Assembly (NCBI GenBank): GCA_964424195.1
Contig: CAYRHT010000002.1
Coordinates: 144,120 to 208,119, forward strand
Length of the DNA stretch: 64,000 nt
Direction: 5' to 3'
Source of the DNA: an uncultured Gammaproteobacteria bacterium
GTDB lineage: Bacteria > Patescibacteriota > Patescibacteriia > UBA1558 > S5-K13
Shown here: piece after piece, positions 3,929 to 41,616 of the stretch
Layout of the letters: each line of letters opens with the position of its first letter
Position numbering within the stretch: the stretch's first letter is position 1
The notes under the pieces: model-generated
Databases searched by the model: none
The model's input: only the letters and a program-made list of their open reading frames with translations
Told to the model about the DNA's origin: nothing
Translations under genes and position numbers: made by a program

Positions 3929-5188
3929 TTATTTTAATATTTCAATAGCTTTGTCTAATTGAGGATCTAAATCTTCATCATAATCCTCTTCTGTTAATTC
4001 AACTTCTAAATCAGGTATAATACCTTCTTCACTAATAGATCTATCATTAGGAGTAAACCATTTAGCAATAGTTAACTTAATTGATGAACCATCACTAAGT
4101 TCAGTTAAATCTTGAACTGAACCTTTACCAAAGGTAGTTTCTCCGAGAATAGTAGCTAGTCCATAGTCTTGTAATGCTCCAGCAACAATTTCAGAACCAG
4201 AAGCAGAACCACCATTAACTAGAACTACTGTATTCTTGTCTTTTAATCGAGCCTGACTAGAAGCTGAGAAAGCTTGATTCCGATTACTGTCTCGAGACTT
4301 TTCTTTAACAATTACTCCTTCTTCAATCCAATGATTAGCCATAGAGATGGCAGTAGTTAGGAAACCACCAGGATTATTTCTTAAATCTAGGATAACAGAA
4401 TTAATATTCTTGTTAGTTAAATCATTTACAGCTTCATCAAAAAGTTTTTCAGTATCTTCATTGAAGTGACTAACTTGAATATATCCAATACTATCTTCTA
4501 GTATTTCATACTTTACACTAGCGTATTGAATCTTGTCTCTAATTACAATTAAATCTTCTTCACTATTATCTTTATGAATAACTCTTAGAAGGACTTCAGT
4601 TCCTTTATCACCTCTAATTAGAGTGACAGCTTTAGTTAAAGAAATACCACTAGTATCTAAATCATCAATAGCTATTATCTTGTCCCCAGCTCTTAAACCA
4701 GCTTTTTCTGCTGGACTATCTGGTAAAGGAGATACAACTGTTAATCTTTCTTTCTTGATAGCTATTTCTGCTCCAATACCTTCAAATTTACCTTGTAATT
4801 CTTGATTAAACTCTTCCGCTACTTCAGGAACTAAGAATACTGAATATGGATCTCCCAGAGAAGCTACTAAGCCCATCTGAGCTCCATAGAACATTTCTAC
4901 TTCATTAATATCTTGATCTATATATTTATCTTTAATTAAATCCCAAGTTTGCCAGAATAATTTAAAATTTACATCTTCGGATAGATATTCTGGTTGTTTA
5001 GCTCCTTGGTTCTTTACTTTACCAGAATCAGAATCACCAATACTTATTTCATCACTCCCAGAAATACCAACAATTAAACCAACAAAAAAACTAATAATTA
5101 TCAAGATAGCAATGATAATTATTCTAAGAGTTTTCTTTTTTTCAGGGCTTTCTAGTTTACTAGAAAAATATGGCTTTGTATTTTCCAT
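3929..5188 (-). CDS. ctpA: Carboxyl-terminal processing protease (S41 family) with N-terminal TM anchor and PDZ domain
   Basis: PDZ region, [16 protein letters not shown] serine-protease core, N-terminal TM helix. Confidence 0.85.
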
Positions 5189-6579: not shown

Positions 6580-7899
6580 ATGAAAATTTGGATTAGAAAT
6601 ACATATTTTATTCTAGCGGTGCTAATTTTTTGTTCAGCATCAGTTTTTTTTATTTTCTTAGCTTCTGGGTATAATTATGACTTTTCCAAGAATAAATTAG
6701 AAAAAACTAGTGTTTTGTATTTAAAGTCTTACCCGCGAGATGCTCAGATATTCTTAAATGATAAAGAATACAAAAAATTAACACCAACAGAGATTACTCA
6801 TTTGAAATCAGATTTGTATAATATTAGGATTGAGAAAGAAAATTACCAAATTTGGGAGAAGCAATTATTAATTAAACCAGAACAAACTGTTTTTATTGAA
6901 GATATATCTTTGTTTTACAAAGTTCCGGAAGTCTCTATTTTAGAAAATGGTAAATTTCAAGAAATATCAGTATCACCAGATAAGCAGAATATATTATTTT
7001 ATGATTTAGAAAAAAAGGAAGTGAATATTTTTAATCTTAATGAAGAAAGAATTATTAATATTGAAGAAGATATTGAGGAAGTAAATTCTAGTTTATGGTC
7101 TTCTGATAATCAGAAGGTGTTATTAGAAATTGGTGGAAAGCATTTTGTATCTTTTGTTTATTTCAATGAAGATCTTTTAGATTTAGATAAATACCTTAAT
7201 TTTACTCCGCAAGAGATTGTTTGGGATAAGTTTGATTCTAATTTAATTTATTTACTAACTAATAACGGAGATATTTACAATTTTAATTTAGACAGAAAGA
7301 TTCTTAAGAAGATTAAATTAGAAAATGTTTTAGGTATTAAACCTGAGAAAGACAAGTTATTCTATCTTACTAATGAAGGAACTAATGATAGTTTTAATGT
7401 TTATGATTTAGAGAAAGAAGTTAGTGAGAAGTTATTAGACTTAGGAAGTAGTTCTAGTTATAGTTTCCAACTTCCCTATCATGATTATTTTTGTTTAAAA
7501 GATATAGATAATACTTTGTATTTAATTGATCCTAATACCGAGGAATATTTGATAAAGAAGTTTTACAATGTAAAGAATTTAGAATGGGATTTGTATAATC
7601 GGATTTTGTTGTTAAATAATGACTTTGAAATTTGGTCCTATGATTTACCTACTGAAGAAGAAACTTTAATTAATAGATTTAGTAACAAGATTGAAAATGT
7701 CTTCTGGCATCGAAATAATAATCATGTTTTCTATGTGATTGATAACAAAGTACAAGTAATTGAATTGGATAACAGAGATCGAAAAAATATTTATCCTTTA
7801 GATAATATCTATAATTCTCAGTTATTTTTAGCAAACAAAAAAGGTAATATTTTGTATTATATTACCCCTTCAGGTTTATTTGAAAGTATTATTCAATAA
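6580..7899 (+). CDS. Membrane-anchored PEGA-domain / beta-propeller-like hypothetical protein
   Basis: N-terminal TM, PEGA-like segment (LKSYPRDAQIFLNDKEYKKLTPTEI), repeated beta-rich C-terminal region. Confidence 0.5.
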   Translation: MKIWIRNTYFILAVLIFCSASVFFIFLASGYNYDFSKNKLEKTSVLYLKSYPRDAQIFLNDKEYKKLTPTEITHLKSDLYNIRIEKENYQIWEKQLLIKPEQTVFIEDISLFYKVPEVSILENGKFQEISVSPDKQNILFYDLEKKEVNIFNLNEERIINIEEDIEEVNSSLWSSDNQKVLLEIGGKHFVSFVYFNEDLLDLDKYLNFTPQEIVWDKFDSNLIYLLTNNGDIYNFNLDRKILKKIKLENVLGIKPEKDKLFYLTNEGTNDSFNVYDLEKEVSEKLLDLGSSSSYSFQLPYHDYFCLKDIDNTLYLIDPNTEEYLIKKFYNVKNLEWDLYNRILLLNNDFEIWSYDLPTEEETLINRFSNKIENVFWHRNNNHVFYVIDNKVQVIELDNRDRKNIYPLDNIYNSQLFLANKKGNILYYITPSGLFESIIQ

Positions 7900-8901
7900 T
7901 TAATTAGCATAGTACTCATCTAGATCATCATTGGGGAGAACTTCCATATCATCAATAACTGGTGAATTCTCATCTATATTTAACAATGGTCTTTGATAAG
8001 TATCTTGAGATTCTTTAATTGGTTTTAAATCTTCTGGGAAGATTTCTTTTTTTTCTTCTAAGTCCTGATACTCTTCTTTAACTATCTTGGGAGCATCTTC
8101 TTTGATTATTCTTAATGTTTCTTTAATAACTTCATGAGCTGTATCTTTAATAATCTGCATTGAAGATTTAGAAATAATTCTTTGATTGTTTGTTTCAGCT
8201 ACTAAGTTATTAGCTTGTAACCAAGTATCAATTGATTCACCACAATCACCCCACCAACCTTTTAAAGTACTGTAATTCATAGTTCCTTGTTTGATATAGA
8301 AGTTATTAACATCAGTAATTTCTAATTCTCCTCGACCAGAAGGTTTAAGAGTTTTAATAATATCCCAAACTTGATTATCATACATATATACACCAACTAC
8401 TGCTAGATCACTAACAAACTTCTCTGGTTTTTCAATAATATTTTCAATCTTGTCATCTTTTACTGTAGCAACACCATAGGCTTCTGGTTTCTCAACTTTT
8501 TTAAGGAAGATTCGAGCACCCATAGTAACTTGTTTAAATTCATTTACAGCATCTGTAATATCATCTTGAAGGATATTATCACCTAAATATACAACTACTT
8601 TATCACCATCTACAAAGTCTCTAGTTAAGTCTAAAGCTTGAGCAATACCACCAGCTTCTTCTTGAACAGCATATGAGAAACGAGCTCCAAATTTTTGTCC
8701 TGAACCTAGTAATTCCAAGAAATCTCCAGCATGTCCTTTACCAGAAACAATCATAATATCTTTAATACCAGCTTTAACTAATGATTCTATTGGGTAATAG
8801 ATCATTGGTTTGTTGTAAACTGGGAGTAAATGTTTGTTTGTAATTTTAGTTAGTGGATAAAGTCGAGAAGCTGTTCCACCAGCCAGGATAACTCCTTTCA
8901 T
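7900..8901 (-). CDS. rmlA: Glucose-1-phosphate thymidylyltransferase-like sugar nucleotidyltransferase with acidic C-terminal extension
   Basis: MKGVILAGGTASRLYPLTKITNKHLLPVYNKPMIYYP matches RmlA/RfbA; 333 aa versus about 290 typical. Confidence 0.8.
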   Translation of the reverse strand: MKGVILAGGTASRLYPLTKITNKHLLPVYNKPMIYYPIESLVKAGIKDIMIVSGKGHAGDFLELLGSGQKFGARFSYAVQEEAGGIAQALDLTRDFVDGDKVVVYLGDNILQDDITDAVNEFKQVTMGARIFLKKVEKPEAYGVATVKDDKIENIIEKPEKFVSDLAVVGVYMYDNQVWDIIKTLKPSGRGELEITDVNNFYIKQGTMNYSTLKGWWGDCGESIDTWLQANNLVAETNNQRIISKSSMQIIKDTAHEVIKETLRIIKEDAPKIVKEEYQDLEEKKEIFPEDLKPIKESQDTYQRPLLNIDENSPVIDDMEVLPNDDLDEYYAN

Positions 8902-35829: not shown

Positions 35830-36426
35830 TTAATTTAAAATATTTCTTATTTGAAGATTGGCGTGAATTTGTTTAATATCTTTATTTAGTATAATTTCCT
35901 TTTTATCTCCCTCTGTTAGATTGAAATTTCTTTTTATTTGTTTAATTTCATTCGCTAAATCATTTATTTTCTCTTGGTTTCTTATATTGAACATTTCTTG
36001 TAGATTGAATATTATTAGTTCTTTGATTGCTTTTCTAACTTCTGGAGTATCAACATCTTTATCTTCTAAACGATATTTAAATTTTAATTCTAAAGCTTCG
36101 TCAGGAAGTCTATCTTCAAATTTTTTTACTATTTCATCTATTTGTTTCTTTTTTTCTATTATATCCTGCATTCTAGGAAGATCTTTCATATTATCTCCTA
36201 ATTTTTTTTCATTTTCTTCAATATTTTTTTCTCTCCCTGTTAATTCAACATCTTCTTTCTTTTCATCATTTAGATCTTTTTCCTTAGTTATTTCAGAAGT
36301 ATCATCAATTTTTCCAATTTCAAAATTAGTTGGTTTACCAAAGTTTTTTTCACTTAAATCTTCCAATTGTTCGCCTTTTTGTTTAGCCTCTTCTAAACTC
36401 ATTGGTTGTTCTCCAAGTTTAATCAT
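35830..36426 (-). CDS. Hypothetical charged coiled-coil protein (198 aa)
   Basis: ORF; the overlapping plus-strand ORF 35921..36442 is low-complexity antisense. Confidence 0.45.
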   Translation of the reverse strand: MIKLGEQPMSLEEAKQKGEQLEDLSEKNFGKPTNFEIGKIDDTSEITKEKDLNDEKKEDVELTGREKNIEENEKKLGDNMKDLPRMQDIIEKKKQIDEIVKKFEDRLPDEALELKFKYRLEDKDVDTPEVRKAIKELIIFNLQEMFNIRNQEKINDLANEIKQIKRNFNLTEGDKKEIILNKDIKQIHANLQIRNILN

Positions 36427-36560
36427 ATTTTTATATTATTAAATTTTTTATTAATTTATTTGAATCGTCCCATGTTTTACTATTTACAAGTAAAATTATG
36501 GGGATTTGCATTTATTATTAACTACATATTAGTTTAAAAGCTTTTTAAAAGAAAGTAAAG

Positions 36561-38006
36561 CTATTTCTTAAACACTTGTTTAACAAAATCTAAGTCCTCT
36601 TTTGTTAGGATTTGGAGTACAAAAGTCATAATCATGTAAAGAGCTCCAGATAAAGCAATGTTTAACAACCAATGTAATCTATCTTTAAAGAAGAATAAAG
36701 AAATTACCATTATTAAACAAGCTAAGAAGATTCTAGAGAAGTTAGAAGCAATGATTTTAGAGTTAAATTTAACTACTTGATGAGAACTAATAGTATTTAG
36801 TATTAAATAGCAAATAGTGGCTAAAATTGATGCTATAGCAGCTCCTGTGTGCGAATAAGTGGGAATAAAGATGATATTAGCAATAATACTAACAATCATA
36901 GTAAATCCTATGTTTCTAGTATGTATTTTCTGTAAATTAGCGGCATTCAACAAAGCACCCATTGGGAAAGTTAAGAATATTAATGGCAGATTACAAATTA
37001 ATATCTGTAAGGTTAAAATTGAAGGTGCATATTGTTGTTGATAGACACTGAGAATAATAGTTTTAGCCATCACAGCAATACCAATAGCAATTGGTATTGA
37101 GAGTACAGAAAGATAGATAAGGCTTTTGTTAAAAGTATTCTTTAATTTTTCTTTTTCATAGTTAAAGAAGTGAGTAAAAGCTGGATAGAGAGAAGCTACA
37201 AAAGCCATTGGTATGAATTGAAAAGCAAATGTTATCTTGTATGGTAAAGAATAATATCCAACTGCTTGGTCTCCAGAGAATTTAGAAAGGAAAACAGAAT
37301 CAATACTTCCTGATATTCTCATAAAGATTGCTGCCAGAGCAAAAGGCCAAGCAATGATTAATAATTTCTTAGCAAATTCTTTGTTTAAAACAGGACGTAA
37401 AGCAATCTTGTACTTAAATCTTAAAACACTAGCAGAGAATATTAGATTAAAAGAACTAGCAATTAGTAAAACAATTAACAACAAGAAAGGATCATGAGTA
37501 TATCGAAGCATTAGATAACCTAGACTTAAAACAATAGCTTGGAATATGATTGAAGCAATACTTTCAAACCCTAAATTATGCTTACCTCTGATAATAGCCC
37601 AGAAAGTTAGAGTAAAACTATCTATGAGCATGGTAGCACAAGATAAATAGACTAAGTTCTTAATATCTAGATCGTAATTTAATAGATTAATGGTAATGTA
37701 AATAGCAAATAGGATAATAACCGAAGTAATTAATTTAATAGCAATTACATTAGAAATTAGCTTCTGAATAGTTTCCTTAGCTTTAGCTATTTCTCTAGTA
37801 AGTAAACTACTTAGACCAAAATCTAGAAATACAGAGAAAATAGTTACAAAAGAAATAGCAAAAAAGTATTGACCTATTTTTTCAGAACCAATTTGAGTAG
37901 CTAGATAAGAGAAATAAGTGAATGAAATCACTTTTTGAACTACTAAAGCTATTGTGAAATAGCCAGTATTTTTTACTAATTTGTTGGAGGGTGAATTATT
38001 TTTCAT
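36561..38006 (-). CDS. Polysaccharide flippase (Wzx/MOP superfamily)
   Basis: 481 aa, about 12-14 TM helices, Wzx-like N-terminus. Confidence 0.7.
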   Translation of the reverse strand: MKNNSPSNKLVKNTGYFTIALVVQKVISFTYFSYLATQIGSEKIGQYFFAISFVTIFSVFLDFGLSSLLTREIAKAKETIQKLISNVIAIKLITSVIILFAIYITINLLNYDLDIKNLVYLSCATMLIDSFTLTFWAIIRGKHNLGFESIASIIFQAIVLSLGYLMLRYTHDPFLLLIVLLIASSFNLIFSASVLRFKYKIALRPVLNKEFAKKLLIIAWPFALAAIFMRISGSIDSVFLSKFSGDQAVGYYSLPYKITFAFQFIPMAFVASLYPAFTHFFNYEKEKLKNTFNKSLIYLSVLSIPIAIGIAVMAKTIILSVYQQQYAPSILTLQILICNLPLIFLTFPMGALLNAANLQKIHTRNIGFTMIVSIIANIIFIPTYSHTGAAIASILATICYLILNTISSHQVVKFNSKIIASNFSRIFLACLIMVISLFFFKDRLHWLLNIALSGALYMIMTFVLQILTKEDLDFVKQVFKK

Positions 38007-38032
38007 GAAGTAATTATATCATAAAAGATAGA

Positions 38033-38067
38033 AGAAAATAAAAAAAGCCTTCAATATTTTGAAGGCT
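38033..38067 (-). terminator. Rho-independent terminator (AGCCTTCAA-TATT-TTGAAGGCT) for the 38102..38706 cassette
   Basis: Perfect 9-bp stem with U-run on the minus strand. Confidence 0.5.
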
Positions 38068-38101
38068 AAATTATTTTTATTTCCTAGTGGGAATGACACA
38101 T

Positions 38102-38290
38102 TTATCGTATTTGCCCACATAAATTACATCTGCATGCGGGATCATGATCTGGTGGTGCGTCAGGTAATTTTTGGTTGATTCCAAATTTTATACAAGAAGA
38201 GCAACAACAAGTCTTTTCATGTTCAAGAGCGCCTTCTTTTTCGCATTCATTACATGTACAGCAATTCCAATGATCATTTCTTATTGACAT
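38102..38290 (-). CDS. Cys-rich 62-aa peptide (14 Cys; CC/CCC clusters)
   Basis: RBS AGGAGG embedded in the last codons of the upstream gene; TAATG start/stop overlap. Confidence 0.5.
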   Translation of the reverse strand: MSIRNDHWNCCTCNECEKEGALEHEKTCCCSSCIKFGINQKLPDAPPDHDPACRCNLCGQIR

Positions 38291-38706
38291 TATACCTCCT
38301 TTATTTCTCTTCTAGCTTTATCATGTAAGGCTGCTAAACCAACTAATAGAGTTAATTGTTGAGCTGGTGTATCTACATTATGAGAAGAAAATTCATAGCC
38401 CAATCCTTTCTCAACTCTTCCATTACTAGGGTTTATATCACAAGCATCTCCAGGGCAAGATATATTAATCCATCCATCATCGTGATCAATAGAAGCTCGG
38501 AAGTCGTATTCTTTGTATTGATTTGAATCAAATATTGTTTGATAAGTTAATTGCATTGCTTCAACTATTTCAATGATTACTGGTCTTTTGTCTCTTTTTA
38601 AACTTTCCGTTCTTAATATTCCCAACCAATTACAAAGAGGAACACTGTATTGTCCACCCAGAGAACCACCACATATATCACGAGATGTTATGGTTCTAAC
38701 TTCCAT
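38290..38706 (-). CDS. Hypothetical protein (138 aa) with conserved Cys/His/Asp residues
   Basis: ORF; elevated GC versus surroundings; in-frame hydrophobic extension upstream lacks ATG. Confidence 0.5.
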   Translation of the reverse strand: MEVRTITSRDICGGSLGGQYSVPLCNWLGILRTESLKRDKRPVIIEIVEAMQLTYQTIFDSNQYKEYDFRASIDHDDGWINISCPGDACDINPSNGRVEKGLGYEFSSHNVDTPAQQLTLLVGLAALHDKARREIKEV

Positions 38707-38879
38707 AAGCTGAAGTAATGATGACGAAGTTTCTTTCTCTATTATAAGTAATAATGCAAAGAGTACAGTAAAACTTGCTGAAATAGCATTAATGATACTC
38801 CAATCATAGTATTTTTCAATTCCATTACCATTACAAATTAAACATTTGTCATTAAGAATGACACTTTTTAAAAAGCAAG

Positions 38880-38912
38880 AAAGAAAGCCCTCGATATGTC
38901 GAAGGCTTTAGG
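38880..38912 (-). terminator. Terminator hairpin (AGCCCTCGA-TATG-TCGAAGGCT) downstream of 38930..39394
   Basis: 8/9-bp stem followed by U-rich tract on the minus strand. Confidence 0.4.
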
Positions 38913-38929
38913 ATAGTTTAAGGGTACTT

Positions 38930-39394
38930 TTATATGTATTCTTGAACTATTTTTGAAAAATTTTGTGTTGGAGATGCACAGAGCATCTTGTTTTCATTAT
39001 TGCTCATGATTGAATAAATTTTTCTTTCAGAATCATAAGTAATTAAAAGATTTGTAGCTGAAGTTTTATCTTGAATTTGTTTCCAGTTATTTTCTTCAAG
39101 TTTTTTACAGAAAGAATTAAATTCTTTTATAATTTCTGTATTTTCTGAAGAATCGGAATTTAATTCAAAGAGTATCTTCGTGGCTTTACCATTCTTTTCA
39201 TATAATCCAATTGGATGATGATTAAATTTTAAAAGCAAATGTTCATCACCAATACTTTTATGAGTTATGGTAGTTGTAGTTGTGGTTTCAGAATTCGAGA
39301 GAGAAACTATTGAATGTATTAAACTAAGAGCACAAAAAATAGCTACTACTGTTAGAAAAAGTCTTACTTTAAGAGTCGCTTTACTTATTTTCAT
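38930..39394 (-). CDS. Secreted hypothetical protein with poly-Thr linker (154 aa)
   Basis: Signal peptide; TTTTTTIT tract. Confidence 0.5.
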   Translation of the reverse strand: MKISKATLKVRLFLTVVAIFCALSLIHSIVSLSNSETTTTTTITHKSIGDEHLLLKFNHHPIGLYEKNGKATKILFELNSDSSENTEIIKEFNSFCKKLEENNWKQIQDKTSATNLLITYDSERKIYSIMSNNENKMLCASPTQNFSKIVQEYI

Positions 39395-39470
39395 TTTTTC
39401 CTCCTCAGGATTTTTTTATTTTGTCATTTATTTGACTTCACAGTTTATCATTAATATTAATTAGAGTCAA

Positions 39471-39498
39471 TTAAAAAATCCCGTAGAACGGGATTTTT
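39471..39498 (-). terminator. Terminator AAAATCCCG-TAGA-ACGGGATTTT after rpsI
   Basis: Perfect 9-bp stem; same hairpin sequence recurs at 58091..58114. Confidence 0.5.
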
Positions 39499-39520
39499 GA
39501 TATATATAATGTAATATAGT

Positions 39521-40066
39521 TTAACGTTTTGACCATTGGGGAGCTTTTCTAGCTCTCTTTAAACCTGGTTTCTTTCTTTCTTTTACTCTAGGATCTCTCT
39601 TTAATAGTCCATTAGCTTTCAATGTTTTTCTAACATCTGGGTCTAATTCTACTAAGGCTCTAGAAATACCAAGTCGAATAGCATCTACTTGTCCTCTTTT
39701 ACCACCACCTTTAACTTTAATAGTTATTGTAAATTTACCATTAGCACCAACTAGTTTTAGAGGTTCAGTAATTAAACCACCATATACTACATAATCAAAG
39801 TATTTATCAATAGCTTTATCATTTATAGTAATAGTACCTTTTTCATTAAAAAGATGAACAGTAGCTACTGAAGACTTTCTTCTACCAATTGCTCTGATAT
39901 ACTTACCTTTAGCTAAAGTTACCTTTTTCATTGTAGTTGGTTCAGGTTTTGTTTCTGCTACTGTTTCTGTTTCTTTAACAACAGCTTCAACTTTAGGAGT
40001 TTCTTTAACTTCTTCTTTCTTTACCTCTTCTTTTGGTTTAGCTGTTTTAGTGGTTTTCTTTTCCAT
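39521..40066 (-). CDS. rpsI: 30S ribosomal protein S9 with about 55-aa Lys/Glu-rich N-terminal extension
   Basis: C-terminal GGGKRGQVDAIRLGISRAL...KKPGLKRARKAPQWSKR S9 signature. Confidence 0.9.
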   Translation of the reverse strand: MEKKTTKTAKPKEEVKKEEVKETPKVEAVVKETETVAETKPEPTTMKKVTLAKGKYIRAIGRRKSSVATVHLFNEKGTITINDKAIDKYFDYVVYGGLITEPLKLVGANGKFTITIKVKGGGKRGQVDAIRLGISRALVELDPDVRKTLKANGLLKRDPRVKERKKPGLKRARKAPQWSKR

Positions 40067-40800: not shown

Positions 40801-41616
40801 TTATTTTTTCTTAGTTACTTTCTTAGTAGTTTTCTTAGTAGCTGGTTTCTTAGCTATCTTTTTAACAGCCTTCTTAGTGGTTTTCTTAGTAGCTGGTTTC
40901 TTAGCTACCTTTTTAGCTGCTTTAACTACCTTTTCTTCTTCATAGACTAATGAAAAATGATCAATTAATACTTTAGTTGCTTTAGAGATAGCTTCTTTAG
41001 GACTTAAACTACCATCAGTTTCAACTTTCATCTTTAATTTTTCATAATCAGTTCTTTTACCAACTCGTACTGCTTCAATACCAAAACTAACATTAACAAT
41101 CGGTGAATAATATGAATCAATACTAATTTCATTAGAAGCTAGAGCTTGATCTATCTTATTCTCAATAGTTACATATCCTCGACCATTTTCAGCAGTAAAT
41201 TCTATTTCTAACTCAGCTTTCTTGTCTGTTAAATGACCTAAGATTAAATCTGGATTAGTAATTTCAGCTTGAGCATTATTATCAATATTTTTAGCTTTAA
41301 CTACTTTTTCACCTTTTACTTTTAATTTCAATTTAATTGCTTCATCAGAAAATACTTTTAATCTAATCTTTTTAATATTCAGTATTAATTCAACAACATC
41401 TTCTTTTAAATGATCTAGAGTTGAGAATTCATGACTAGCACCTTTAATCTTAACTTTAGTTATAGCGGCACCAGTTAAAGAAGATAATAGTACTCTTCTT
41501 AAAGAGTTAGCAATAGTTATTCCGTAACCAGGGAAAAGGGGCCCAATGATAATTTGGGTTTTATTATCTTTAAGTTCTTTATATTCAATATTTTTTGGTA
41601 ATGGTATGTTTTCCAT
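40801..41616 (-). CDS. rpoA: DNA-directed RNA polymerase alpha subunit, N-terminal domain only, with Lys-rich repeat tail
   Basis: Alpha-NTD similarity over about 230 aa; C-terminus AKKPATKKTTKK repeats instead of alpha-CTD; 271 aa. Confidence 0.85.
   Translation of the reverse strand: MENIPLPKNIEYKELKDNKTQIIIGPLFPGYGITIANSLRRVLLSSLTGAAITKVKIKGASHEFSTLDHLKEDVVELILNIKKIRLKVFSDEAIKLKLKVKGEKVVKAKNIDNNAQAEITNPDLILGHLTDKKAELEIEFTAENGRGYVTIENKIDQALASNEISIDSYYSPIVNVSFGIEAVRVGKRTDYEKLKMKVETDGSLSPKEAISKATKVLIDHFSLVYEEEKVVKAAKKVAKKPATKKTTKKAVKKIAKKPATKKTTKKVTKKK
40817..40916. repeat. About 48-nt tandem direct repeat (2 copies) encoding the Lys-rich tail of rpoA
   Basis: ttcttagt(a/g)gttttcttagtagctggtttcttagcta(t/c)ct repeated back-to-back. 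Confidence 0.6.

What the first reader, a model, noticed from the sequence alone, without database searches (positions are those of the whole stretch)
38033..38912. GC-enriched two-gene cassette encoding a 138-aa protein translationally coupled to a 14-Cys 62-aa peptide
Region 38102..38706 has visibly higher GC (about 40% versus about 30%). It is bracketed by its own rho-independent terminators (38033..38067 and 38880..38912). It encodes a protein with conserved Cys/His/Asp positions (ICGG...HDDGW...CPGDAC). The start codon of the second gene overlaps the first gene's stop (TAATG), and the AGGAGG for the peptide is embedded in the last three codons of the first gene. The peptide (HWNCCTCNEC...TCCCSSC...ACRCNLCGQIR) could be a metal-binding, RiPP-like or toxin-like peptide, and the partner could be a small Cys-peptidase or transglutaminase-like processing enzyme. 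Upstream of the annotated ATG the frame stays open through a hydrophobic stretch (SIINAISASFTVLFALLLII) with no ATG, which suggests a non-canonical start or an N-terminally truncated acquired gene.
Basis: partly seen in the sequence, partly recalled or inferred. Interest (0 to 1): 0.55.

Follow-up and report, generated by a model that had tools for sequence, protein, structure and literature searches.

The report
Truncated gene plus tiny zinc protein
The "cassette" is the leftover back 60% of a widespread but uncharacterised Patescibacteria gene, followed by a real, very rare 62-residue Cys/His-rich protein that probably binds zinc; nothing supports a peptide-toxin or RiPP system.

Summary
The sequence features are real. 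Both ORFs are on the minus strand, with a TAATG stop/start overlap, an AAGGAGG before the peptide ATG, and two terminator hairpins.

Several numbers in the finding are off:
- GC is 35.2%, not 40%, and third-position GC and codon usage are native.
- The peptide has 11 Cys plus 3 His, not 14 Cys.

The 138-aa ORF is not a small enzyme gene. The open frame 38907..38293 matches positions 115-292 of a 293-position profile of a ~295-aa Patescibacteria family. That family has an N-terminal CWYELSW domain, two CxxCxGxG zinc knuckles and a C-terminal CPGDACG/HNVD domain. Its AlphaFold model has pLDDT 95 and no fold match in PDB. The first 114 profile positions are missing here. The "hydrophobic stretch" is a conserved family helix.

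The peptide belongs to a tiny family (6 other sequences found). Its invariant core is H-x3-C-x-C-x2-C…GxNQK…AP-DH-x3-C-x-C-x2-C, and it is under purifying selection. The motif matches a reported zinc site of TRPC channels.

The two genes are not partners elsewhere. No peptidase, RiPP, defence or phage signal was found. This is of modest interest.

The parts
38884..38909 (-). Hairpin T2 followed by CTTTCTTGCTTTTT. It is the intrinsic terminator of the upstream 154-aa gene (38930..39394) and marks the left edge of the unit.
   Evidence: 11-bp stem; dG -15.0; similar only to T1 within the 64 kb window.
38856..38868 (-). Left copy of a 13-nt direct repeat, AAAAGTGTCATTC. It ends 2 nt upstream of the first codon that aligns to the family profile.
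   Evidence: only two copies in the window. A 12/13 match was reached in 17 of 5000 shuffles of the junction segments.
38707..38853 (-). Start-less remnant of the family gene. It holds the second zinc knuckle (KCLICNGNG), the conserved ISASFT helix and ETSSSLLQL, corresponding to profile positions 115 to about 162.
   Evidence: conservation equals that of intact family members (0.470 against 0.467 mean identity).
38792..38819 (-). Promoter-like site TTGAAA-16-TATCAT inside the remnant. It is a possible promoter of the two ORFs, based on a consensus match only.
   Evidence: 10 of 12 matches. The count of such sites in the region is not above that in shuffles.
38290..38706 (-). 138-aa ORF, the C-terminal part (profile about 163-292) of the ~295-aa Patescibacteria family. 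It carries the motifs GGSLGG, CPGDAC, GYEF and SHNVD...LHDKAR.
   Evidence: >200 homologues, best full-length hit 56% identity. E 2.3e-80 to the family HMM; 41 of 43 conserved columns kept.
38295..38301 (-). Shine-Dalgarno AAGGAGG for the peptide gene, lying inside codons K-E-V of the 138-aa ORF.
   Evidence: a 6-nt SD core. Found at 7 of 52 long ORFs against 0.7% of random positions.
38102..38290 (-). 62-aa Cys/His-rich protein with three H-x3-C-x-C-x2-C motifs at H7, H24 and H49. The ATG overlaps the upstream TAA.
   Evidence: family of 6 other sequences with invariant H/C/GxNQK/AP positions; purifying selection; motif count.
38091..38103 (-). Right copy of the 13-nt direct repeat, AAATGTGTCATTC. 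It overlaps the peptide stop codon.
38046..38067 (-). Hairpin T1 followed by TTTTTTT. It is the intrinsic terminator after the peptide gene and is 23/28 alike to T2, with one compensatory A-T to G-C stem change.
   Evidence: dG -11.9.

Best explanation
**Overview.** The locus holds two unrelated things that happen to be joined.

**1. The 138-aa ORF and the 147 nt of family-homologous frame upstream of it**
- Together they are the 3' roughly 60% of a gene for a ~295-aa protein family that is widespread in Patescibacteria.
- The full-length family has an N-terminal CWYELSW domain, a pair of DnaJ-like CxxCxGxG zinc knuckles, and a C-terminal alpha/beta domain with CPGDACG and (C/S)HNVD motifs.
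- Its function is unknown, and its confidently predicted fold has no PDB counterpart.
- In this genome the first 114 profile positions are gone: the whole N-domain and the first knuckle. The break lies immediately after the terminator of the upstream gene.
- I infer that the fragment is a recently truncated, probably non-functional remnant. A product starting at the ATG would lack the zinc site and a buried 18-residue helix.
- Its 3' end now serves mainly as leader and ribosome-binding region for the next gene.

**2. The 62-aa ORF**
- It is a genuine gene for a rare mini-protein.
- Its three H-x3-C-x-C-x2-C motifs most likely each hold one Zn(II) through His plus three Cys.
- It is translated from its own strong AAGGAGG, possibly helped by ribosomes terminating at the overlapping TAA. 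Transcription ends at hairpin T1.

**Shown:** homology, truncation point, conservation, motif pattern, absence of partnership elsewhere, native composition.

**Inferred:** zinc binding, expression, and the non-functionality of the 138-aa product.

**Confidence.** The 0.6 is for the whole package. Identity of the two parts is about 0.9, zinc binding about 0.6, and the fragment being non-functional about 0.55.
For: **Truncation**
- The extended frame hits 215 proteins, typically about 295 aa, covering about 90% of the 205-codon frame.
- The family HMM aligns profile 115-292 only. The 10 loci I retrieved that hold the whole gene (L003-L006, L011-L016) all align over about 2-292.
- The sequences show CLICNGNG aligned to the second knuckle and ISASFT...ETSSSLLQL upstream of the ATG.
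- No N-terminal domain occurs anywhere in the 64 kb window.
- The same arrangement is found in 24 independent contigs, so it is not an assembly error.

**No decay**
- 41 of 43 columns conserved at 90% or more are kept.
- The two changes are shared with the nearest relative, P0013.

**Family fold**
- pLDDT is 95.3 and pTM 0.93. Residues 131-148 form a helix.
- There is no PDB or BFVD match beyond the knuckle.
- An independently frameshifted copy in another lineage (L019/L020) shows the family can be lost.

**Peptide is a real gene**
- An exhaustive HMMER search of 1.84e9 proteins gave 4 hits (E 1e-8 to 2e-4). A profile search and a metagenome scan added 2 more.
- Fourteen columns are invariant, including both H-x3-C-x-C-x2-C motifs.
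- L009 against L018: pN 0.14 against pS 0.82.

**Zinc**
- The same HxxxCxCxxC motif is the proposed Zn site of TRPC5 (H172/C176/C178/C181; PMC7683545).
- The family profile aligns weakly to that stretch of TRPC4 (E 0.34).
- CxCxxC clusters bind Zn in SV40 small t antigen (PMC1945078).

**No partnership**
- None of the 10 family loci carries the peptide.
- None of the 5 other peptide loci with DNA in hand carries the family gene. A sixth (P0122, ENA contig) has only a gene table, with no family-sized neighbour.

**Native composition:**
Against: - The 67 start-less codons upstream of the ATG are still open and as conserved as in intact genes. This fits a very recent truncation, but it fits equally well a region that is still translated or selected.
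- The flanking repeats (hairpins 23/28 alike, 13-mer 12/13 alike) have diverged. If they date the rearrangement, it may not be recent.
- Lack of an SD before the 138-aa ATG is uninformative, because 42 of 52 long ORFs in the window lack one.
- Zinc binding is inferred from a motif only. The AlphaFold model of the peptide is poor (pLDDT 48), and the TRPC match is not statistically significant.
- The N-terminal half could be encoded elsewhere in the ~950-kb genome. I could not search it.
Confidence: 0.6

Rival explanations
1. The pair is a functional two-gene operon. The 138-aa C-terminal domain would be a working short isoform, translationally coupled to the zinc mini-protein. The mini-protein might even substitute for the lost internal zinc-knuckle module.
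For: - The frame is intact and 41 of 43 conserved residues are kept.
- There is a one-base stop/start overlap, and the SD is built into the variable C-terminal tail.
- A promoter-like site lies inside the remnant.
- No full-length paralogue from the same 953-kb contig appears among the listed hits.
- Codon usage of the ORF is native.
Against: - The pairing is unique to this genome.
- The nearest relative, L007, has no peptide gene downstream.
- The ORF lacks helix 131-148 and both halves of the zinc site of a model that behaves as one rigid unit (pTM 0.93).
- The conserved sequence upstream of the ATG cannot be explained by a product that starts at the ATG.
Confidence: 0.25
2. The unit arrived as an inserted DNA fragment (a 5'-truncated gene plus the peptide gene) between two tandem hairpins, with duplication of a 13-nt target. 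The alternative is a deletion in place. This rival concerns origin only and is compatible with either functional reading.
For: - The layout is: T2, 15 nt, AAAAGTGTCATTC, insert, AAATGTGTCATTC, 23 nt, T1.
- The 13-mer occurs only at these two junctions in 64 kb. A 12/13 match is reached in 0.34% of shuffles.
- The hairpins are related to each other and unique in the window.
Against: - There is no transposase, integrase or terminal inverted repeat.
- GC3 and codon usage are native.
- The repeat was noticed post hoc and is short.
- Terminators can resemble each other by convergence.
Confidence: 0.3
3. This is the first reader's model: a RiPP-like or toxin-like Cys-rich precursor peptide with a small Cys-peptidase or transglutaminase-like processing enzyme, acquired horizontally.
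For: - The peptide is Cys-rich and small and is tightly coupled to the upstream ORF.
- In two family loci a small C39-like protein lies upstream of the full-length family gene. That is a neighbour, not the family itself.
Against: - The ORF has no peptidase or transglutaminase signal in Pfam, NCBIfam, the PDB profile search or Foldseek.
- It is a fragment of a larger non-peptidase family.
- The peptide homologues have no conserved neighbour and no maturase.
- The peptide is conserved over its whole core, including non-Cys residues (GxNQK, AP), as in a folded protein.
- There are no PADLOC or PHROG hits.
- Composition is native.
Confidence: 0.03
4. These are chance ORFs in AT-rich DNA.
For: Many 30-60-aa ORFs occur by chance in this window.
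Against: - The family HMM gives E 2.3e-80.
- The peptide family has invariant residues, and pN is far below pS.
- Synonymous-codon scores are far above off-frame controls.
Confidence: 0.01

Closest known systems
Unnamed ~295-aa Patescibacteria protein family (hypothetical proteins, e.g. MAG Portnoybacteria, Wildermuthbacteria, Beckwithbacteria and Saccharibacteria entries). One member carries a precomputed PF27659 tag whose name I could not look up.
   Same: The window frame shares 45-56% identity over profile positions 115-292. It includes the second CxxCxGxG knuckle, the ISASFT helix, and the GGSLGG, CPGDAC, GYEF and HNVD...LHDKAR motifs.
   Different: The N-terminal CWYELSW domain and the first knuckle (profile 1-114) are missing. 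There is no start codon before residue 163 of the family numbering. It is the only copy I saw followed by the Cys/His mini-protein gene.
DnaJ central cysteine-rich domain (PF00684, CxxCxGxG zinc finger)
   Same: Full-length family members match it weakly (E 5e-6 to 9e-3, below the gathering score), and the family profile hits DnaJ zinc-finger structures 2ctt and 1exk.
   Different: Only two knuckles (one zinc centre) are embedded in an otherwise unrelated fold. In the window only one knuckle survives, and it lies outside the ORF.
HxxxCxCxxC zinc site of TRPC1/4/5 channels, with a similar site reported in the UHRF1 PHD finger (PMC7683545)
   Same: The ligand spacing H-x3-C-x-C-x2-C is identical and occurs three times in the 62-aa protein. 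The family profile aligns to TRPC4 residues 162-183, which contain that site.
   Different: The match is not significant (E 0.34) and covers only about 22 residues. This is a motif resemblance, not homology. Here the motif is repeated in a free-standing bacterial mini-protein.
CxCxxC zinc clusters of polyomavirus small t antigen (PMC1945078)
   Same: Two CxCxxC clusters each contribute three ligands to a separate Zn. A fourth ligand, Cys or His, comes from elsewhere in the protein.
   Different: There is no sequence similarity. The fourth-ligand positions and the surrounding helices differ.
Metallothioneins and other Cys-rich metal-storage peptides
   Same: Small size and high Cys content (18%).
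   Different: No significant Pfam metallothionein match (best E 0.94 for one member). Conserved His and non-ligand residues (GxNQK, AP) and fixed spacing point to structural sites in a folded protein.

Membership tests
~295-aa Patescibacteria CWYELSW / CxxCxGxG / CPGDACG family | Significant similarity to the C-terminal domain, with its conserved motifs | tested here: met
   HMM E 2.3e-80, profile 115-292. 41 of 43 columns conserved at 90% or more are kept.
~295-aa Patescibacteria CWYELSW / CxxCxGxG / CPGDACG family | N-terminal ~100-aa CWYELSW domain | tested here: not met
   It is absent from the locus and from the whole 64 kb window. The rest of the genome was not searchable.
~295-aa Patescibacteria CWYELSW / CxxCxGxG / CPGDACG family | Pair of CxxCxGxG knuckles forming one zinc centre | tested here: not met
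   Only the second knuckle (CLICNGNG) remains. It lies upstream of the ATG in a start-less frame.
Peptidase C39 / CHAP / transglutaminase-like (papain-fold) enzymes | Profile or fold match including the catalytic Cys-His | tested here: not met
   No Pfam or NCBIfam hit at E<=1. PDB profile search gave only DnaJ knuckle hits. Foldseek best E was 0.02 with TM 0.23.
RiPP precursor with maturase | Conserved co-occurrence of the peptide with a modifying or processing enzyme gene | tested here: not met
   The 6 other peptide loci have unrelated neighbours. The 10 family loci lack the peptide.
RiPP precursor with maturase | Post-translational modification or cleavage of the peptide | not testable with these tools
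   This needs mass spectrometry.
Metallothionein families (Pfam) | Match to a metallothionein profile | tested here: not met
   Only one family member matches Metallothio_11, at E 0.94.
HxxxCxCxxC His-Cys3 zinc site (TRPC / UHRF1 type) | Ligand pattern H-x3-C-x-C-x2-C | tested here: met
   Three copies, at H7, H24 and H49. Two of them are invariant across the family.
HxxxCxCxxC His-Cys3 zinc site (TRPC / UHRF1 type) | Bound Zn(II) with tetrahedral geometry | not testable with these tools
   The AlphaFold model is too poor (pLDDT 48). This needs metal analysis or a structure.
Intrinsic (rho-independent) terminators | G+C-rich hairpin followed by a T-run on the transcribed strand | tested here: met
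   T1 has 9 bp, dG -11.9 and T7. T2 has 11 bp, dG -15.0 and CTTTCTTGCTTTTT. Termination activity itself was not tested.
Horizontally acquired island or cassette | Deviant GC3 or codon usage, or mobility genes | tested here: not met
   GC3 is 0.17-0.21, as in neighbouring genes, and the codon score lies within the native range. Neighbours are housekeeping genes.

The most novel reading that the evidence does not exclude
**Reading.** The 62-aa protein would found an undescribed class of free-standing bacterial mini-metalloproteins built from tandem His-Cys3 (H-x3-C-x-C-x2-C) sites. In this genome it would work together with the retained C-terminal domain of the Patescibacteria-specific protein, supplying in trans the metal module that the truncation removed. 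That would make the unit a naturally re-engineered split protein rather than a pseudogene plus a bystander.

**What the evidence allows.** It is consistent with the undecayed frame and the tight coupling. It is contradicted only by the lack of conservation of the pair elsewhere.
Probability: 0.08. Interest if true: 0.55.

Novelty: new variant of a known kind. Interest (0 to 1): 0.3.

Why it matters
- **For this finding.** It removes a tempting but wrong annotation (RiPP or toxin cassette with a mini-peptidase). It shows how a gene fragment can look like a neat small gene.
- **The larger family.** The finding points to a Patescibacteria-wide ~295-aa family whose very confident predicted fold has no solved relative. 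It often sits beside one-carbon/folate and translation genes.
- **The mini-protein family.** This extremely rare family carries two or three copies of the His-Cys3 motif known as a zinc site in TRPC channels.
- **Follow-up value.** Both families are cheap targets for structure and metal analysis. Neither changes a major open question.

Tried and rejected
**Searches that found nothing useful**
- Pfam, NCBIfam, PADLOC and PHROGs scans of both ORFs and of full-length homologues gave nothing beyond sub-threshold DnaJ knuckle hits.
- PDB sequence-profile searches gave only DnaJ knuckles for the large family, and a non-significant TRPC4 stretch for the peptide.
- Foldseek of the pLDDT-95 family model against PDB and BFVD gave no fold match.
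- AlphaFold of the peptide from 6 sequences gave pLDDT 48, unusable, so no fold search was made.
- Rfam scan of 37800-39600 gave nothing near a gathering score.
- Three literature searches for the family and for the motif gave only the TRPC5 and small-t analogies.

**Tests that were uninformative**
- Search for the missing N-terminal domain by tblastn and by an N-domain HMM over the six-frame window gave only DnaJ at about 1342-1720.
- Strain polymorphism could not support a selection test. Three independent contigs are 100% identical over the locus.
- A Shine-Dalgarno argument against translation of the 138-aa ORF was dropped, because most long ORFs in the window lack an SD.
- Short family members as evidence for a natural short isoform did not hold up. 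P0013 is cut by a contig end, and P0119 is a frameshifted full-length gene.

**Ideas rejected**
- Integron attC or REP-like reading of the hairpins: they are 22-26 nt, followed by T-runs, occur only twice, and no integrase is nearby.

**Other limits**
- The genome-contig scan did not contain this organism, so I obtained no species name and no syntenic relative.
Full report
**What is in the sequence**

All genes in this part of the window are on the minus strand. Reading that strand, the order is:
- ribosomal protein S9;
- a 154-aa hypothetical gene (38930..39394);
- hairpin T2 (38909-38884) with a T-run;
- a 201-nt stretch that is open in frame but has no ATG, GTG or TTG;
- the 138-aa ORF (38706..38290);
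- the 62-aa ORF (38290..38102);
- hairpin T1 (38067-38046) with T7;
- a Wzx-type polysaccharide flippase gene (38006..36561; Pfam Polysacc_synt, E 5e-36).

The region holds 5 terminator-like sites against 0.5 expected from shuffles. T1 and T2 fold at -11.9 and -15.0 kcal/mol.

**Composition**

- The claimed GC enrichment is weak. 38102..38706 is 35.2% GC against 29.9% for the window. That is the 94th percentile of equal-sized windows, and such windows reach up to 40.8% elsewhere.
- The excess lies in codon positions 1 and 2. GC3 is 0.17-0.21, as in the neighbouring flippase, S9 and rpoA genes.
- A synonymous-codon preference score trained on 14 long genes gives 0.285 for the 138-aa ORF and 0.185 for the peptide. 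Native 138-codon chunks score 0.306 +/- 0.082, and off-frame chunks score -0.215 +/- 0.116.
- Composition therefore gives no sign of recent foreign origin.

**The 138-aa ORF is a fragment of a larger gene**

- Translating the whole open frame (38907..38293, 205 codons) and searching 5.8 billion proteins gave 215 hits. Apart from the identical 138-aa entry (seen on 22 contigs, the longest 953 kb), the best are 44-56% identical, about 295 aa long, and cover about 90% of the query.
- The hits therefore cover the start-less part as well.
- The few hits that carry a name, and the genome hits, come from Patescibacteria MAGs: Portnoybacteria, Parcubacteria, Saccharibacteria, Staskawiczbacteria, Wildermuthbacteria and Beckwithbacteria.
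- The sequences and a 106-sequence alignment (A1) show the family architecture:
  - an N-terminal domain with a nearly invariant CWYELS motif;
  - two CxxCxGxG knuckles;
  - a hydrophobic segment, AISASFT.FF;
  - ETS..PQL;
  - a C-terminal domain with HGGSLGG, CPGDACG, GYEF and (C/S)HNVD.P.QQ..LL.GLAALHDKAR.
- An HMM of A1 aligns the window frame to profile positions 115-292 of 293. The 10 loci I fetched that hold the whole gene (L003-L006, L011-L016) align from position 2 or 3 (7 in L014) to about 290.
The sequence KCLICNGNG just upstream of it is the second zinc knuckle.
- The 54 nt between the terminator's stop codon and the knuckle are hairpin and T-run, not family sequence.
- No N-terminal domain is detectable anywhere in the 64 kb.
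- The arrangement is identical in independent assemblies from JGI, Logan, ENA and NCBI, so it is not an assembly artefact.

**State of the fragment**

- The fragment shows no decay.
- Mean identity to family members is 0.470 for the start-less part, against 0.467 +/- 0.039 for intact members over the same columns. For the ORF part it is 0.502 against 0.515 +/- 0.025.
- Of 43 columns conserved at 90% or more, 41 are kept.
- The two exceptions are H to C in (H/C)GGSLGG and G to D in CPGDAC(G/D). Both are shared with the closest relative, P0013, so they are lineage features.
- A 67-codon stop-free run occurs in 0.07% of off-frame runs of this genome. The open frame is therefore explained by ancestry, not chance.
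- Two readings remain: the truncation is recent, or the region is still under selection.
- The ATG used by gene callers corresponds to a position that is L, I or M in the family, so it is not a new start.
- There is no SD in front of it, but 42 of 52 long ORFs in the window also lack one, so this says little.
- P0013 looked like a second short form, but it is cut by a contig end.
- P0119 is the downstream half of a frameshifted full-length gene. That at least shows the family is disrupted in another lineage too.

**What the family is**

- No Pfam-A or NCBIfam model covers the family.
- The knuckles match DnaJ_CXXCXGXG only below threshold, and they match the DnaJ zinc-finger structures 2ctt and 1exk in a PDB profile search.
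- AlphaFold2 on A1 with P0002 as target gave mean pLDDT 95.3 and pTM 0.93, one compact alpha/beta unit.
- In that model, residues 131-148 (the "hydrophobic stretch") form a helix. The window's Met aligns to residue 163, the start of a beta-strand.
- Foldseek found nothing credible in PDB (best E 0.02, TM 0.23) or in BFVD, apart from about 30-residue knuckle matches.
- A product starting at the ATG would lack the N-domain, the whole zinc centre and that helix. I infer that it is unlikely to fold like the parent.
- The function of the family stays unknown.
- Its neighbours vary:
  - L11 upstream and glyA-folD-gatB downstream in L006 and L012;
  - tmk-thyA-folA upstream and gatB downstream in L015;
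  - a small C39-like protein upstream, and DnaG downstream (directly in L005, about 2.5 kb away in L003).

**The 62-aa ORF is a real gene of a very rare family**

- The word-indexed search found only the ORF itself.
- An exhaustive phmmer search over 1.84 billion cluster representatives found four relatives, with E from 1.2e-8 to 1.7e-4.
- A profile search added one more. A metagenome scan added a new sequence (L018) and a second contig (L017) carrying P0122.
- The alignment has 14 invariant columns: H24, C28, C30, C33, G37, N39, Q40, K41, A45, P46, H49, C53, C55, C58.
- These amount to two H-x3-C-x-C-x2-C motifs joined by G-x-NQK-x3-AP-x-D.
- The window protein has a third, N-terminal copy (H7...C16). 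P0124 and P0126 have a CxCxxC at that place.
- It has 11 Cys and 3 His, so 12 motif ligands (3 His, 9 Cys) and two further Cys, not 14 Cys.
- The closest pair of homologues (L009 and L018) differ at 14% of non-synonymous sites but 82% of synonymous sites. This is clear purifying selection.
- No Pfam, PDB, PADLOC or PHROG family matches.
- The best PDB alignment, not significant at E 0.34, is to TRPC4 residues 162-183, [21 protein letters not shown].
- That stretch contains the HxxxCxCxxC motif that cryo-EM work on TRPC5 assigned as a Zn2+ site, with a similar site reported in the UHRF1 PHD finger (PMC7683545).
- CxCxxC clusters also hold zinc in SV40 small t antigen, one of them with a distant His as fourth ligand (PMC1945078).
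- I therefore read the protein as a mini-protein with up to three His-Cys3 zinc sites. This is inference from a motif.
- The AlphaFold model built from six sequences is unusable (pLDDT 48).

**The pair is not a conserved unit**

- A peptide HMM run over six-frame translations of all fetched loci finds the peptide only in its own loci. It finds none of it in the 10 family loci or in L007, the nearest relative.
- The family HMM finds nothing in the peptide loci.
- Neighbours of the peptide homologues differ in every case: a Trp-repressor-like gene and glycosyltransferases; HD-domain genes and an IS481-type integrase; DinB; RmlC and SHMT.
- No maturase, peptidase or transporter recurs.

**The edges of the unit**

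- T1 and T2 are the only two copies of their kind in the window, with 0 expected by chance.
- They match at 23 of 28 positions, and one stem pair has changed from A-T to G-C on both sides.
- A 13-nt direct repeat, AAA[A/T]GTGTCATTC, lies 15 nt after T2 and ends 2 nt before the first family-homologous codon. It occurs again overlapping the peptide's stop codon, 23 nt before T1.
- These are its only two occurrences in 64 kb.
- A 12/13 match between the two junction segments arises in 0.34% of shuffles.
- The layout "hairpin, 13-mer, insert, 13-mer, hairpin" is what insertion with target duplication between two tandem hairpins would leave.
- I treat the origin, insertion of a fragment versus deletion in place, as open.

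**Verdict**

- Best explanation:
  - a recently truncated remnant of a Patescibacteria-specific gene, probably no longer functional;
  - its 3' end carries the ribosome-binding site of a genuine, rare, probably zinc-binding 62-aa protein;
  - the unit ends at T1.
- A working two-gene operon cannot be excluded (about 0.25).
- Interest is modest. The specific cassette is ordinary genome wear. The two underlying families, a confidently folded Patescibacteria-wide protein without structural relatives and a tandem His-Cys3 mini-protein, are undescribed and easy to test.

Noticed in passing
window 38856-38868 and 38091-38103 (- strand): A 13-nt direct repeat, AAA[A/T]GTGTCATTC, sits exactly at the two junctions of the fragment-plus-peptide unit. 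Each copy lies between the unit and one of the two related hairpins. This layout looks like a target-site duplication.
   Followed up: partly
L019 1824-2719 and L020 226-1064: In another metagenomic lineage the same ~295-aa family gene is split into 144-aa and 154-aa ORFs by a frameshift, which lies somewhere between family residue ~80 and the second knuckle; a T8 homopolymer run sits in that interval. It is seen in two assemblies from the same study.
   Followed up: partly
L006 and L012 (family gene at 4001-4900 and 7650-8549), L015 (7578-8567), L003 and L005: Full-length family genes sit next to one-carbon/nucleotide and translation genes. These are L11 upstream with glyA-folD-gatB downstream, or tmk-thyA-folA upstream with gatB downstream. 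In two related genomes the upstream neighbour is a ~140-aa Peptidase_C39-like protein. This is a possible functional hint for the family.
   Followed up: no
window 36561-38006 and further downstream; L009 4533-8955; L018 401-967: Three of the six contexts of the Cys/His mini-protein family lie beside cell-envelope sugar genes. The window has a Wzx-like flippase, GtrA and an epimerase. L009 has GT2, GT4, Wzm and Wzt. L018 has RmlC. This may be coincidence.
   Followed up: no
model of P0002 (family), residues C242, C247, H267, D270: The nearly invariant CPGDACG and (C/S)HNVD motifs of the C-terminal domain could form a metal or catalytic site. The confident model (pLDDT 95) has no PDB or BFVD fold match. 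I could not inspect coordinates.
   Followed up: partly
window 40801-41616 (-) and 39521-40066 (-): RpoA is only 271 aa and ends in a Lys-rich repeat (KKVAKKPATKKTTKK...), with no alpha-CTD Pfam hit in the precomputed list. S9 carries a ~50-aa Lys/Glu-rich N-terminal extension.
   Followed up: no
window 35830-36426 (-) and 35921-36442 (+): A 198-aa Glu/Lys-rich ORF has a 173-aa ORF running antisense over nearly its whole length. The antisense ORF is Ser/Phe/Leu-rich and is probably a mirror artefact of the low-complexity coding strand.
   Followed up: no
window 38102-38290: The NCBI source lists the 138-aa protein but not the 62-aa one (sources for P0121 are JGI, Logan and ENA only). The mini-protein gene therefore appears to be uncalled in the GenBank annotation of this genome.
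   Followed up: no
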